Origin: Promethearchaeati archaeon SRVP18_Atabeyarchaeia-1
GTDB taxonomy: Archaea > Asgardarchaeota > Atabeyarchaeia > Atabeyarchaeales > Atabeyarchaeaceae
Direction of reading: 5' to 3'
Assembly: GCA_037308085.1 (NCBI GenBank)
Contig: CP147779.1
Location: 640,001 to 704,000, forward strand
DNA length: 64,000 nt
In this document: one piece after another, positions 13,671-16,523 of the stretch
Layout: every line of letters begins with the position of its first letter
Numbering within the stretch: the first letter of the stretch is position 1
Translations under genes and position numbers: made by a program
Notes under the pieces: model-generated
What the model saw: only the letters and a program-made list of their open reading frames with translations
What the model was told of the DNA's origin: nothing
Database searches by the model: none

Positions 13671-13838
13671 TCCGCAGCTCCTCCAGAGCTTCTTTCACTA
13701 GTGCATATTGAATCAATGGAATGGTTATTAAGGTTATTGTTCAAGAGGTGCGCTAGTTTCAGCGAAGAAAGATTAAATTATGTATTTGAAATCTATCTCA
13801 TGTAGGCTAGAAAAAGAATTCCCGGAGGATGCGAAAGT

Positions 13839-15205
13839 TTGGAAATTGATTCTGCCAAGCGAACGTATACGAAGATTAGGGATTTGTTGCGTGAACACCA
13901 TGAATGGTTTGATGCTAGTATACCTTTGATAGCTAGCGAGAATGTTCCGAGTCCTGCAGTTCGTGCAGCGGTCGCTTCAGATTTTGGCAACCGGTATGCG
14001 GAAGGCTGGCCTGGAGAGTAAGTGCTCGGCTCCAACTCTGAGCATTTTCCAGAAAGCGGGTCTATGCCGGTTGCAAATATATCGATCAGGTTGAGCTGAT
14101 TTGTAGCGACTTAGCTAGGAAGCTCTTCAAAGCCGAGTTTGCCGATGTTAGGCCCATCTCTGGTGTTGTAGCCAATCTGGCTGTTTACACAGCCTTCTCC
14201 GAGCCGGGAGACCGAATGATGGCGTTACCGATCCCCGACGGCGGACACATAAGCCACGCAAAGAGGTCTTTAGGCGGGACGGCGGGATCCGTTCACGGGC
14301 TTAGAGTCAGGTACTTCGAGTATGACGAGAACGAGCTCAACATCGATGTTGACAGAAGCATAAAGCGGATAAAGAAGACGATAAGCAAGGGCAAAGCCAT
14401 CACTCTGTTCATGTTTGGTGCTAGCGTCTTTCCCTTTCCGCACCCTGTCAAAGAGTTCCGGGAGATCGCTGATGAGATGGGCTCATTCATAGCATACGAC
14501 GGGGCCCATGTGTCAGGGTTAATTGCCGGTGGGTGCTTCCAAGATCCCCTGAGAGAAGGGGCTGACGTATTCTCCATGAGTACACACAAGACTATGCCTG
14601 GTCCGCAGGGAGGCCTCGTAGTTTCTTGGGAGAAGTACGCTGAGCGAATAAAGAAAGCTACATTTCCTGGCCTCACGAGCAACCATCATCTCAACACGGT
14701 TGCTGGAAAAGCGATAGCATTTGCCGAGATGATGGCATTCGGCAAGGAGTACGCTAGGCAGATTATTGCAAATGCCAAAGCTCTCGCTCAGGCCCTACAC
14801 GAGGAAGGCTTCAACGTGCTGGCAGAGCGTAAGGGGTTCACCGAATCCCACACTATATTGGTTGACATAACGGGCACTCCCCTCAAAGATGGTCGTGCCT
14901 GCGAGCAGGCCCTGGAATCATCAAACATAATCATCAACAGAAATCTCCTGCCTTGGGACATTCGGAAAGGTCGCAACTACCTTGCACCTGGGGGCATACG
15001 CTTGGGGACGAGCGAGGTAACAAAGTTAGGCATGAGAGAATCCGAGATGAGAGAAATAGCATCCCTCATTAGGCGCGTCATCATCGATCGCAAGAATCCC
15101 AATGACATGAGCCGGGTCGTAAAGGAATTTAGGCAGCCATTCAAGAAGGTCAAGTTCTGCTTTGAATCACAGGCTGACGCCTACGAGTACTTCGACATAA
15201 AATAG
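13839..15205 (+). CDS. glyA: Serine hydroxymethyltransferase, split by a 38-nt intron (exons 13839-14016, 14055-15205)
   Basis: LIASEN, RYAEGWPGE|RVYAGC, GGHISH, STHKT (PLP Lys), GIRLGT; in-frame TAA at 14019 lies inside the insertion. Confidence 0.93.
14017..14054 (+). other. BHB-type mRNA intron in glyA
   Basis: CTGG/CCAG 4-bp helix, AGA and AAA bulges, inner stem AAGTGCTC/GAGCATTT; canonical cuts restore the frame and GWPGERVY. Confidence 0.82.
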
Positions 15206-15231: not shown

Positions 15232-16523
15232 GGTTCTGTCAAGTCCTCGGTTGATGACCGTTTGAGCTGACTTCTCCGCTTTGGCTCACCGCCTTGTTTA
15301 AGGGTCGGATCACTGCTACACGTGCGGAGCGATCTAGGGTGAACCGCACCCTTTCATCTTGGATTTTGAGCATGTTCAAGCAGGCATTCACGTGGCGGTT
15401 TGTTCCGCAGCATTCTAGAGTTTTCGCTTTCGGGTCTTGCATCACGCACCCACACACCGCGCATACCCTAGAAGTGTTCCTCGGGTTTACCTTGATGGTT
15501 TGGACTCCTTCCCAGAGAGCTTTGTACTCGATGAAGCCTTGCAGCTTGCGGAAGCTCCACGAGTTCAGCCTCCGCTTCAGCCTCTTGGAGTGTATGCTAA
15601 TCCTTTGAATTCTCCCATTGAAGTTGTTGGCGCTTAAGACCTTGCGGTTGACTGCCTTGCGGATGTATGTGAGGTCTTCGAGGATAATGCCTTGCTCTCT
15701 ATTTTTCGCTTGCCTAACTATGGCTGAACTCACTTGATGCAGAACCGTGTTGACCTTGTTGTCCTGATTGGTGTACCAGTTTCTCTGAATCCTCTTCGCC
15801 ACCCGCCTGTCCTTAGCGTACTTGGCTTGAGCCCTTCGAACACGTTCGAAGTACCCGTGCCTAACCTCTGAAACCGCCGATAAATCATGGCTCTCGATAG
15901 TCAGTTCTCCACTTTCTTCTAGGCTAGCTCCATCAATTGAGCGCTCGTTCGTGTCGTACGCAACGTAGCTCTTGGGCTCGGTAACCTCAGCGATCTTCGA
16001 GAAAACCACTGTAACCGTGCAAGCAGTCAATGTGACCGAGCCTAACTTCAGCGAGGCGTCCGACAGGAACTGTACCGCCCTCTTATGAAAGGGGATGTAG
16101 AAGTACTCTCGCGGCTTGGTGGGTATCCTCAGCCTGCCGTCAACAACCCTATAACCCTGATTCCCAAGTTTAGCCGTGAGTTTCGTGGCCCTCGGCACTC
16201 GAATGCTCTGTCGCCTTCTCTTCGCTTTCCGGTGATTCTTCAGGATGGCAGTGGCAGCCTCGATGGCTGAGAGGCTGTACCAAGTGTGGAGACCGAAATC
16301 GCCTAGCCGGCGGTACACCTCGCTCTGCAGGCTGAACCTTGAACTAATGTTCTTCTCCAGACCTACACGGATGCAATAGTTAACCATGCTCTTGAAGGTC
16401 TCAAGGAGACCAAGGACACTGCTCGTAGGCTCGTATGGCATCTGCACCGCTTTGATTGCCTGCATAAAGTCATGTAAGCTAAACCACTCATTTAAACCCA
16501 CTAACCGAAGACTTGACAAAACG
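15232..16523 (-). mobile_element. tnpB-only element with 20-bp TIRs and perfect 8-bp TSD (copy 2)
   Basis: GTTCTGTCAAGTCCTCGGTT (15233-15252) / AACCGAAGACTTGACAAAAC (16503-16522), 18/20; GTAGCTTT duplicated at 15224-15231 and 16524-16531. Confidence 0.88.
15239..16465 (-). CDS. tnpB: TnpB RNA-guided nuclease family protein (intact ORF)
   Basis: RuvC-I YVAYDTN, Ruv[37 protein letters not shown]; ATG about 26 nt after TTTAAA TATA box inside the left end. Confidence 0.93.

What the first reader, a model, noticed from the sequence alone, without database searches (positions are those of the whole stretch)
14001..14066. Protein-coding gene glyA is interrupted by a BHB intron
Seen: SHMT stops at TAA 14019 immediately after YAEGWPGE and resumes in another frame as RVYAGC. 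The insert folds as central helix CTGG(14011-14)/CCAG(14049-52), bulges AGA and AAA, inner stem AAGTGCTC/GAGCATTT and a short imperfect outer helix. Canonical cuts remove 14017-14054 (38 nt) and give GGA GAG CGG, i.e. GWPGERVY with no residue gained or lost. The rest of the gene is intact, including the PLP lysine. Established: mRNA BHB introns are known mainly from crenarchaeal cbf5. Inference: a central one-carbon enzyme needs EndA/RtcB splicing, possibly as a regulatory link; annotation pipelines would miscall it a pseudogene.
Basis: partly seen in the sequence, partly recalled or inferred. Interest (0 to 1): 0.88.

Follow-up and report, generated by a model that had tools for sequence, protein, structure and literature searches.

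The report
Splicing-type intron inside archaeal glyA
The serine hydroxymethyltransferase gene of this Asgard archaeon is split by a 38-base insert shaped like a tRNA-type (bulge-helix-bulge) intron; apart from one 5'-leader case in Haloferax, the literature I could search reports such introns in only one archaeal protein gene (cbf5), and this genome has at least five more.

Summary
SHMT (glyA) runs 13839-14016, is broken by 38 nt (14017-14054) with a TAA at 14019, and resumes at 14055 in another frame. Removing exactly those 38 nt gives a 442-aa SHMT reading GWPGERVYAGC, collinear with Pfam SHMT and PDB 4bhd.

The insert sits at the same site in all three genomes of its GTDB class and in nine further metagenomic contigs. 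It is 38-41 nt long, covering every length class modulo 3. Both exons are under strong purifying selection (pN about 0.10, pS about 0.76). The stems are conserved, with four compensatory pairs, while the loop is free.

RNAalifold independently returns outer helix, CUGG/CCAG helix, 3-nt 3' bulge and a 10-bp inner stem. The 5' bulge is relaxed. An intronless copy nested in the clade reads exactly as the predicted ligation product.

The genome has a catalytic EndA, a second EndA paralog and RtcB. Similar inserts break cbf5, gatE, pcm, MTAP, a RuBisCO-like gene and valS.

No spliced read was seen; one RNA contig starts exactly at 14055. Best reading: an EndA/RtcB-spliced pre-mRNA intron (about 0.87), a new member of the cbf5-type kind. 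The regulatory idea is untested.

The parts
13839..14016 (+). glyA exon 1 (TTG start, 59 codons plus the first base of the Glu codon)
   Evidence: ORF list and translation. Pfam SHMT profile 6-55. PDB 4bhd_A residues 9-55. pN 0.10-0.14 against pS 0.58-0.68 between the three genomes.
14017..14054 (+). 38-nt intron as defined by canonical BHB cuts (after the 2nd base of each bulge)
   Evidence: Excision restores the ORF. Same site in 12 sequences, lengths 38/39/40/41 nt. No other copy in the genome.
14055..15205 (+). glyA exon 2 (last two bases of the Glu codon, 382 codons, TAG stop 15203-15205); PLP lysine codon at 14588-14590
   Evidence: Translation. Pfam SHMT profile 56-399, 224 bits. No ATG/GTG/TTG for the first 53 conserved codons, and the frame is closed by TGA 14039-14041.
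14003..14010 (+). Outer helix, 5' strand (exon 1; G14008 unpaired)
   Evidence: Pairs with 14056-14063. 97% of cells paired in 11 distinct sequences. Also drawn by RNAalifold.
14011..14014 (+). Central 4-bp helix, 5' strand (CUGG)
   Evidence: Pairs with CCAG 14049-14052. Invariant in all 12 copies, including the synonymous third base of CCU.
14015..14017 (+). 5' bulge AGA; predicted 5' cut between 14016 and 14017
   Evidence: Sequence. The cut rule 'between second and third bulge residue' is from PMC2738675. Relaxed on the inner side: G14018.U14048 pair, then unpaired U14019.
14019..14021 (+). In-frame TAA that ends the unspliced exon-1 frame one codon after the 5' splice site
   Evidence: A stop at this place in 9 of 12 copies.
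14020..14029 (+). Inner stem, 5' strand
   Evidence: 10 bp with 14038-14047. Compensatory changes at four pairs (A-U/G-C/G.U, C-G/U-A, U-A/C-G, G-C/U-A).
14030..14037 (+). Loop, free to vary in sequence and length (8-11 nt among copies)
   Evidence: Alignment A2.
14038..14047 (+). Inner stem, 3' strand
14049..14052 (+). Central helix, 3' strand (CCAG)
   Evidence: Invariant in 12 copies.
14053..14055 (+). 3' bulge AAA (AUA or AGA in relatives); predicted 3' cut between 14054 and 14055
   Evidence: Unpaired 3-nt bulge in the MFE of G000 and most other copies and in the consensus fold. The only RNA contig on exon 2 begins exactly at 14055.
14056..14063 (+). Outer helix, 3' strand (exon 2; G14058 unpaired)
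   Evidence: G14056 and C14057 (synonymous choices GAG and CGN) are invariant in intron-bearing copies but changed to GAA AGA in the intronless L188.

Best explanation
The 38 nt at 14017-14054 are an archaeal endonuclease-type (bulge-helix-bulge) intron inside the glyA pre-mRNA.

Proposed mechanism:
1. The transcript folds so that exon bases 14003-14010 pair with 14056-14063.
2. CUGG (14011-14014) pairs with CCAG (14049-14052).
3. A 10-bp intron stem closes the structure.
4. This presents a 3-nt bulge on each strand, four base pairs apart.
5. The splicing endonuclease, here apparently a heteromer of a catalytic and a second EndA paralog, cuts after the second base of each bulge.
6. RtcB joins the 2',3'-cyclic phosphate end of exon 1 to the 5'-OH of exon 2.
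7. The ligated mRNA reads GGA GAG CGG and is translated into a complete 442-aa SHMT.

Unspliced RNA yields only a 60-aa peptide, because TAA follows the 5' site.

Shown here: the anatomy, its conservation and covariation, selection on both exons, the presence of the enzymes, and the exactness of the in-silico product.

Inferred: cleavage and ligation in vivo.

The intron arose once at the base of the class that the genome's size and habitat suggest is Atabeyarchaeia, and it was precisely lost once.
For: Exact restoration of the protein
- Pfam profile positions 6-55 and 56-399 and PDB 4bhd residues 55/57 abut across the break.
- The 27-nt predicted junction occurs uninterrupted in four intronless SHMT genes of other archaea.

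Conservation and length
- The insert is at the same site in 3 of 3 genomes of the class and in 9 further ENA/JGI/Logan contigs.
- It is missing from the 22 full-length copies checked in the other genomes of the phylum.
- Intron lengths of 38, 39, 40 and 41 nt make any fixed frameshift scheme impossible.

Structure
- 96.7% of cells are paired, four pairs show compensatory changes, and the covariation score was reached by 0 of 500 shuffles.
- RNAalifold finds the same architecture unaided.
- The stems are nearly invariant while the flanking synonymous sites are saturated and the loop is scrambled.

Selection on the exons
- pN is about 0.10 against pS of about 0.76, with no other lesion.
- The exon-2 frame has no start codon for 18-53 conserved codons in all 12 copies.

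Synonymous exon sites inside the helices
- The choices CCU, GAG and CGN are invariant in the 12 intron-bearing copies.
- All three are changed (CCC, GAA, AGA) in the one intronless gene nested in the clade.

Machinery
- The genome has a 209-aa EndA most like crenarchaeal heterotetramer subunits, a second 241-aa paralog, and RtcB.
- The genome is most likely one whose tRNA genes are 92-95% intron-bearing (PMC11291895).

The same cut rule works elsewhere
- It restores cbf5, gatE, pcm and MTAP in this genome and its relatives. For MTAP it yields a conserved Met that I had not assumed. It also restores a RuBisCO-like gene in this genome, which I did not check in relatives.

The DNA is real
- An independent metagenome study carries the same sequence.

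Weak RNA hint
- The RNA contig on exon 2 starts exactly at 14055.
Against: - No read or contig spans the 14016|14055 junction, and no circular intron was seen. The one RNA run held only two 183-nt contigs (13767-13949 and 14055-14237). Their equal length suggests read-limited pieces, so the start at 14055 could be coincidence.
- No near-identical full-length protein from a spliced transcript is in the 5.8-billion-protein collection.
- The 5' side is not a textbook bulge. Only one G.U (or G-C) pair precedes an unpaired U before the inner stem, and two copies lack that G altogether.
- In U-rich copies the MFE prefers a 7-bp helix.
- The single-sequence fold is not significant (z = -1.6).
- A second SHMT-family gene exists, so glyA function is not strictly forced onto this copy.
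Confidence: 0.87

Rival explanations
1. The gene is a pseudogene. A 38-nt insertion killed glyA in an ancestor, and the second SHMT-family paralog does the work.
For: An intact 396-aa SHMT-family paralog sits at C1:84132-85322. Gene callers treat the locus as two fragments.
Against: - Both exons are under strong purifying selection although synonymous sites are saturated.
- None of the 12 diverged copies has a further stop or frameshift in the coding sequence, and all keep a 382-codon exon 2.
- The insert's stems co-vary and are conserved more than synonymous sites.
- The paralog is only 42% identical and lacks the YAEGxPGxR motif.
Confidence: 0.03
2. The insert is skipped by the ribosome (translational bypassing as in T4 gene 60 or mitochondrial byp elements) or crossed by programmed frameshifts, not removed from the RNA.
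For: A stop codon directly follows the last exon-1 codon, and a stable hairpin follows it. This resembles the gene 60 take-off site (my own knowledge of that system).
Against: - There is no matched take-off and landing codon. The codon before CGN is AAG in G000 and UAG in most copies. It matches the take-off codon GAG in none; the one copy where it reads GAG has GUG at take-off.
- The exon-1 frame ends at 14019, before the exon-2 frame opens at 14042. One frameshift therefore cannot link them, and two would insert about 13 foreign residues in the most conserved motif.
- Bypassing does not explain the invariant 4-bp helix, the 3-nt 3' bulge four pairs from the 5' bulge, or the exon-exon outer helix.
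- It also does not explain why the same geometry restores four or five other genes.
Confidence: 0.05
3. The gene is naturally split. A 60-aa N-terminal peptide and a separately initiated C-terminal protein assemble into SHMT.
For: Two ORFs are callable, and both hit Pfam SHMT.
Against: - The exon-2 frame has no ATG/GTG/TTG for 53 codons in G000, and for 18-53 in the other copies.
- Those codons (RVYAGCKYIDQVE...) are among the best conserved.
- No ribosome-binding or start signal is conserved at 14055.
- The break falls inside a codon.
Confidence: 0.03
4. The insert is an assembly or sequencing artefact.
For: None found.
Against: - A DNA contig of an independent wetland study covers 13925-14500 without a difference.
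- The same insert, with diverged sequence, is in 11 other assemblies from ENA, JGI, Logan and GTDB genomes.
Confidence: 0.005

Closest known systems
cbf5 pre-mRNA intron of Crenarchaeota (Aeropyrum, Sulfolobales, Desulfurococcales; Watanabe 2002, Yoshinari 2006, Yokobori 2009 = PMC2738675)
   Same: - A short intron inside a protein-coding frame, bounded by an often 'unconventional' BHB.
- Cuts between the 2nd and 3rd bulge residues, and the break falls inside a codon.
- The host has a hetero-oligomeric EndA.
- Lineage-wide presence with secondary precise loss.
- Gene callers miss it.
   Different: - The host gene is a central metabolic enzyme (SHMT), not an RNA-modification enzyme.
- The host is an Asgard archaeon, not a crenarchaeon.
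- Splicing of glyA has not been shown experimentally, whereas cbf5 cDNAs and in-vitro cleavage exist.
[quoted passage not shown] That is the same place as in Crenarchaeota.
tRNA BHB introns of Atabeyarchaeia/Freyarchaeia (PMC11291895; bioRxiv 10.64898/2026.10.13.758758)
   Same: The same presumed enzymes act on a similar size range. Many sit at non-canonical positions with relaxed motifs. They occur in the same lineages, which are unusually intron-rich.
   Different: The glyA intron lies in an mRNA, with no tRNA body to guide the enzyme. It must be removed before or in competition with translation. Those papers do not mention introns in protein genes.
BHB intron in the 5' UTR of HVO_1309 mRNA, Haloferax volcanii (PMC7714728)
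   Same: An mRNA substrate of the archaeal splicing endonuclease.
   Different: That intron is in the untranslated leader and does not interrupt the reading frame. The host has a homodimeric-type EndA.
IRE1/RtcB unconventional splicing of HAC1/XBP1 mRNA in eukaryotes
   Same: This is an analogy only. A protein endonuclease cuts two small stem-loop sites in an mRNA, an RtcB-type (or Trl1) ligase joins the exons, and the excision changes the reading frame (RtcB role: PMC8718801 abstract; the rest is my own knowledge).
   Different: The nuclease and its recognition motif are unrelated, and that system is regulated by stress. No regulation is shown for glyA.

Membership tests
Archaeal BHB (EndA/RtcB-spliced) intron | Two 3-nt bulges on opposite strands separated by a 4-bp helix | tested here: met
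   The central helix is CUGG/CCAG. The 3' bulge is A-W/G-A, unpaired in the consensus fold and in most single-sequence MFEs. The 5' bulge AGA is followed by a single G.U or G-C pair and an unpaired U, so the motif is relaxed on that side. RNAalifold shows a 5x1 loop.
Archaeal BHB (EndA/RtcB-spliced) intron | Flanking helices (outer exon-exon helix, inner intron helix) | tested here: met
   The outer helix has 7 pairs with one mismatch, 97% of cells paired. The inner stem has 10-11 pairs, 95% paired, four of them with compensatory changes.
Archaeal BHB (EndA/RtcB-spliced) intron | Cuts after the 2nd base of each bulge give a functional ligated RNA | tested here: met
   In silico only. The result is a 442-aa ORF collinear with the Pfam profile and PDB 4bhd, and its junction is identical to uninterrupted homologs.
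Archaeal BHB (EndA/RtcB-spliced) intron | Splicing endonuclease present, of a type that accepts relaxed motifs outside tRNA | tested here: met
   There are two EndA paralogs (209 aa and 241 aa). The first best matches the crenarchaeal heterotetramer chains 3p1z_B, 3ajv_B and 2zyz_B. The subunit composition is inferred, not shown.
Archaeal BHB (EndA/RtcB-spliced) intron | RtcB-type RNA ligase present | tested here: met
   PF01139 match of 583 bits at C1:1025457-1026764.
Archaeal BHB (EndA/RtcB-spliced) intron | Spliced RNA or circular intron observed | tested here: inconclusive
   One RNA run gave two contigs and no junction. One contig starts exactly at 14055. No spliced-form protein is in the collection.
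Pseudogene | Relaxed selection and accumulating lesions | tested here: not met
   pN is about 0.10 against pS of about 0.76 in both exons, with no further lesion in 12 copies.
Translational bypass element (gene 60 / byp type) | Matching take-off and landing codons flanking the gap | tested here: not met
   No copy has matching take-off and landing codons. Take-off is GAG (or GGA) and landing is AAG or UAG in 11 of 12 copies; in the twelfth they are GUG and GAG.
Group I / group II self-splicing intron | Ribozyme core of hundreds of nucleotides | tested here: not met
   The insert is 38 nt. Rfam finds nothing at gathering score in the region.

The most novel reading that the evidence does not exclude
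glyA is one of a whole set of endonuclease-type introns in protein-coding genes of these Asgard archaea.

- This genome alone has at least seven interrupted genes: glyA, cbf5, gatE, pcm, MTAP, a RuBisCO-like gene and valS.
- gatE and cbf5 carry an insert at the same site in the Freyarchaeia-like genome G037. pcm does so in G037 and in G029.
- The cbf5 intron sits at the very codon position known from Crenarchaeota.

If these are spliced, pre-mRNA splicing would be a routine step of gene expression in close relatives of eukaryotes. That would require translation to wait for, or be kept apart from, RNA processing.
Probability: 0.6. Interest if true: 0.92.

Novelty: new member of a known kind. 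Interest (0 to 1): 0.8.

Why it matters
As far as the searchable literature shows, cbf5 of Crenarchaeota is the only archaeal protein-coding frame reported to be interrupted by a BHB intron. The one other mRNA case is a 5'-UTR intron in Haloferax (PMC2738675, PMC7714728). A conserved, selected BHB intron in a core one-carbon enzyme shows that this route is not a cbf5 curiosity, and this genome has at least five more.

- **Eukaryote origins.** These genomes belong to Asgard archaea, so the finding bears on how interrupted genes and the separation of RNA processing from translation could arise before eukaryotes.
- **Annotation.** Such genes are called as fragments or pseudogenes, so metabolic reconstructions of these lineages lose enzymes such as SHMT, GatE, ValRS, PIMT and MTAP.
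- **Intron turnover.** The nested intronless copy gives a clean case of precise intron loss, with release of structure-imposed constraint on synonymous sites.

Tried and rejected
1. Homology-free genome scan for BHB geometry plus ORF joining. It gave thousands of hits and no excess over a mirror-pairing control, and it even missed cbf5. Dropped.

2. Pattern scan of JGI metagenome contigs for the intron's 5' half. It found 0 hits, although a known JGI copy should match, so that collection is simply incomplete.

3. Junction pattern scan. The four hits were intronless distant SHMTs (63-66% identity), not cDNA. They are useful only as proof that the ligated sequence is natural.

4. Search for a spliced-form protein with exon 1 against longer proteins. 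Nothing was above 81% identity. The window's own records may be hidden, so this is no evidence against splicing.

5. RNA coverage gap at 13950-14054 in run X5. The run is too thin to interpret.

6. Split-gene candidates rejected:
   - C1:938368-938475 is a pair of separate nuoC-like and nuoD-like genes with their own stop and start.
   - C1:455956-456313 is the known spurious ORF inside rRNA.
   - C1:2395695-2396050 is a DUF86 pseudogene with an in-frame stop.
   - C1:857221-857272 and C1:923511-923576 are separate HdrA-like and MvhD-like genes that are fused in a paralog.

7. Alternative junction 14015|14054, which would give GKR (my own idea from the bacterial SHMT consensus). It has no BHB support, and the relatives read GER.

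8. valS. The consensus fold has a CGGA/UCCG helix with UAA and GAA bulges, but canonical cuts there would create UAA. I could not place the cut sites.

9. Copies of the intron elsewhere in the genome. None were found, so it is not a repeated mobile element now.
Full report
**What is in the sequence**

On the + strand an ORF starts at TTG 13839 and encodes the N-terminus of serine hydroxymethyltransferase up to ...NRYAEGWPGE. It then meets TAA at 14019-14021. From 14057 a different frame encodes RVYAGCKYIDQVE... through STHKT (the PLP lysine, AAG 14588-14590) to a TAG at 15203-15205.

Pfam SHMT matches profile positions 6-55 in the first piece and 56-399 in the second. In the solved SHMT 4bhd_A, exon-1 residues 13-59 align to chain residues 9-55, and the first exon-2 residue aligns to chain residue 57.

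Deleting 14017-14054 gives a 442-codon ORF with GGA GAG CGG at the joint and no residue gained or lost.

**The fold**

On its own the 81-nt region folds no better than shuffles (z = -1.6). Its MFE lets AGA pair with the U-run, giving a 7-bp helix instead of the 4-bp one. The strict picture is therefore:

- outer helix 14003-14010 with 14056-14063, with one G/G mismatch;
- central helix CUGG/CCAG;
- a clean 3-nt 3' bulge (14053-14055);
- a 5' bulge AGA followed by one G.U pair (14018-14048) and an unpaired U14019;
- a 10-bp stem (14020-14029 with 14038-14047) and an 8-nt loop.

This is a relaxed BHB, of the sort reported for cbf5 introns ('unconventional BHB', PMC2738675).

**Which organism**

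The window lies in a single-contig genome of 2,808,651 bp. Its relatives in the genome collection include contigs titled Odin- and Hermodarchaeota, so the phylum is Asgard.

Size, completeness and habitat (wetland and freshwater sediment runs) fit 'Atabeyarchaeia-1', a 2.81-Mbp complete genome from wetland soil (PMC11291895). That identification is an inference. The paper reports introns in 92-95% of tRNA genes, many at non-canonical positions. It says nothing about introns in protein genes or about glyA. A 2026 preprint on Asgard tRNA introns does not either.

**Comparative evidence for glyA**

*Distribution.* The class holds three genomes in the collection, and all three have an insert at exactly this site: 38, 41 and 41 nt. 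The 22 full-length SHMT copies checked in the other genomes of the phylum are uninterrupted there (open frames of 438-468 aa), and the six I aligned read GGN GAG/GAA CGN/AGA.

Truncated gene calls in the large protein collection led to nine more interrupted copies on ENA, JGI and Logan contigs. They have the same neighbours: Sec61-beta upstream, then a CBS-domain gene and the DP2 polymerase downstream.

*Length and frames.* Intron length is 38, 39, 40 or 41 nt, covering every class modulo 3. In all 12 copies the exon-2 frame is closed by a stop within or at the end of the insert. It also has no start codon for 18-53 highly conserved codons. In 9 of 12 copies the exon-1 frame stops one codon after the 5' site.

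*Selection.* Between the three genomes synonymous sites are saturated (pS 0.75-0.79) while pN is 0.10, in both exons.

*Structure.* The intron's helix bases are almost invariant and its loop is unalignable. On the 12-sequence alignment my BHB structure has 96.7% of cells paired, against 21-49% when partners are slid. Four pairs carry compensatory changes, and the covariation score was reached by 0 of 500 shuffles. RNAalifold, given no structure, returns the same outer helix, 4-bp helix, 3-nt 3' bulge and 10-bp stem.

**A natural control: the intronless copy**

One contig (L188) carries the same gene order and an uninterrupted 442-aa SHMT that is 80% identical. Its protein is labelled Njordarchaeota in nr.

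In a maximum-likelihood tree the 12 intron-bearing genes and L188 form one clade (100/100). L188 is nested inside it (99/96 and 95/83). An AU test rejects holding the intron-bearing genes together without it (p = 0.011). This is a single-gene tree rooted at the midpoint. The simplest history is one gain and one precise loss, as described for cbf5 (PMC2738675).

L188 reads CCC GGA GAA AGA GTC. This is the amino-acid sequence predicted for the spliced product. The three synonymous choices that are invariant in all intron-bearing copies are all changed:

- CCU, which pairs in the central helix;
- GAG and CGN, which close the outer helix.

That is what release from an RNA-structure constraint looks like. 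The exact 27-nt predicted junction also occurs uninterrupted in four more distant SHMT genes.

**Machinery**

The genome encodes a 209-aa EndA with both Pfam domains. Its best matches among solved structures are subunits of the crenarchaeal heterotetrameric enzymes (3p1z_B, 3ajv_B, 2zyz_B). It also encodes a second, 241-aa EndA paralog and RtcB.

Hetero-oligomeric EndA is the type linked to cleavage of relaxed motifs and of the cbf5 pre-mRNA (PMC5829648 abstract; PMC2738675). That the two paralogs form such an enzyme is inferred.

**The same thing in other genes**

The CBF5 model hits this genome in two pieces, profile positions 6-71 and 70-320. The 41-nt insert between them folds as a textbook hBHBh'. 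[quoted passage not shown] This is the position reported for Crenarchaeota.

I then used all ORFs of an intron-poor relative (a 1.418-Mb Odinarchaeum-like genome) as tblastn queries against this genome. I looked for adjacent, collinear hits in different frames. Besides glyA and cbf5 this found:

| Gene | Insert in G000 | BHB geometry | Junction restored |
|---|---|---|---|
| pcm (PIMT) | 28 nt | CGCC/GGCG | ISAP-H-MV |
| gatE | 41 nt | AGGC/GCCU, bulges AGA/AGA, 9-bp inner stem | LLEA-D-EEPP |
| MTAP | 35 nt | 3 of 4 central pairs | DVVG-M-TAYPE |
| RuBisCO-like gene | 28 nt, plus a second break | GCGG/CCGU | GSGGG-I-HAHPDG |
| valS-like synthetase | 31 nt | not canonical in my scan | IDRNG-IPIE |

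Pfam profile coordinates abut or nearly abut across pcm, valS and MTAP; for gatE they leave a gap (positions 30 to 45), and the RuBisCO-like junction was not tested this way.

These inserts are conserved in the sister genomes:

- gatE, cbf5, valS and MTAP in both G001 and G002; pcm in G002 (no pcm match in G001 with this query);
- gatE and cbf5 also in the Freyarchaeia-like genome G037;
- pcm also in G037 and G029;
- none of these five genes is interrupted in G006.

They show compensatory changes, for example CGCC/GGCG to CACC/GGUG in pcm. For MTAP the canonical cut rule predicted a Met that I had not assumed, and intronless homologs have Met there. valS has a BHB-like consensus fold, but canonical cuts would create a stop, so its cut sites remain unresolved.

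The scan sees only genes with an Odin homolog and two sizeable exons, so seven is a lower bound.

**RNA evidence**

Only one RNA run held this locus, as two 183-nt contigs at 13767-13949 and 14055-14237.

The second begins exactly at the predicted first base of exon 2. An assembly graph would produce this if spliced and unspliced forms forked there, or if cleaved RNA were present. The equal lengths suggest read-limited pieces, however, and the first contig does not end at 14016. I count this as a weak hint only.

No junction-spanning contig and no spliced-form protein were found. The DNA itself is confirmed by an independent study's contig.

**Rivals**

- *Pseudogene.* Contradicted by selection on both exons and on the stems.
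- *Ribosomal bypass or frameshifting.* No copy has matching take-off and landing codons. The variable length modulo 3 and the positions of the stops also argue against it. It would not explain BHB geometry shared by several genes.
- *A split two-polypeptide enzyme.* There is no start codon, and the break falls within a codon.
- *Assembly artefact.* Excluded.

**Novelty**

In the literature I could search, cbf5 of Crenarchaeota is the only BHB intron interrupting an archaeal protein-coding frame that is backed by experiment; others have only been predicted, in Sulfolobus genomes and a rudivirus. There is also one 5'-UTR case in Haloferax (PMC7714728). Nothing was found for Asgard protein genes. 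Subscription journals are not covered.

So glyA is a new member of a known kind, in a new host gene class and a new lineage. The wider set of interrupted genes is the more striking result.

Noticed in passing
Outside the window: G000:C1:383581-384587 (L200): cbf5 is split by a 41-nt textbook hBHBh' insert. Canonical cuts fall between the 1st and 2nd letters of the catalytic Asp codon, the same place as the crenarchaeal cbf5 intron. The insert is also present in G001, G002 and the Freyarchaeia-like G037, and absent in G006 and G029.
   Followed up: partly
Outside the window: G000:C1:2218803-2220751 (L198), 305417-306110 (L195), 980040-980893 (L197), 2712322-2713601 (L199), 443687-446162 (L196): gatE (41 nt), pcm (28 nt), MTAP (35 nt), a RuBisCO-like gene (28 nt plus a second break) and valS (31 nt) are each broken by a short insert. 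Canonical BHB cuts restore the conserved protein in the first four. valS has a BHB-like fold, but its cut sites do not fit the rule. All but the RuBisCO-like gene, which I did not check, are conserved in sister genomes.
   Followed up: partly
L029 (G029:C6) and L031 (G019:C24), SHMT near residue 210 of exon 2: Another Asgard genus has its SHMT broken at a different site (VAG|KAV). The insert is about 29 nt with a 10-bp hairpin that shows a compensatory A-U to C-G change between the two genomes. The central helix seems to be only 3 bp.
   Followed up: partly
L188 (Logan contig, 5605 nt): An intronless glyA is nested within the intron-bearing clade (AU test p = 0.011). Synonymous changes have occurred at exactly the exon positions that pair in the BHB. 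This looks like precise intron loss with release of constraint.
   Followed up: yes
window 15239-16519 (-): A 426-aa ORF with a Cas12f1-like TNB domain (TnpB/IS605 OrfB type) lies directly downstream of glyA. In all related contigs a CBS-domain gene follows glyA instead, so this appears to be an insertion specific to this genome.
   Followed up: no
window 52490-52578 (-): A tRNA gene of 89 nt matches the 71-position Rfam model. ARAGORN cannot name it and reports a 4-base anticodon. It is probably intron-bearing, in line with the reported intron load of tRNA genes in this lineage.
   Followed up: no
Outside the window: G000:C1:84132-85322 (L002); also G037:C1:608963-610039 and G028:C487: A second, divergent SHMT-family paralog (396 aa, 42% identity) lacks the YAEGxPGxR motif. 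The corresponding paralog in two Freyarchaeia-like genomes shows one internal TAA, which might be yet another interrupted gene.
   Followed up: no
window 14055 (RNA run X5): The only RNA contig on exon 2 starts at precisely the predicted 3' splice site. Both RNA contigs are 183 nt long, so this may be coincidence.
   Followed up: partly
Outside the window: G000:C1:2703067-2703189: There is a stray copy of the C-terminal 41 residues of the interrupted RuBisCO-like gene about 9 kb away. The gene region may be rearranged or decaying.
   Followed up: no
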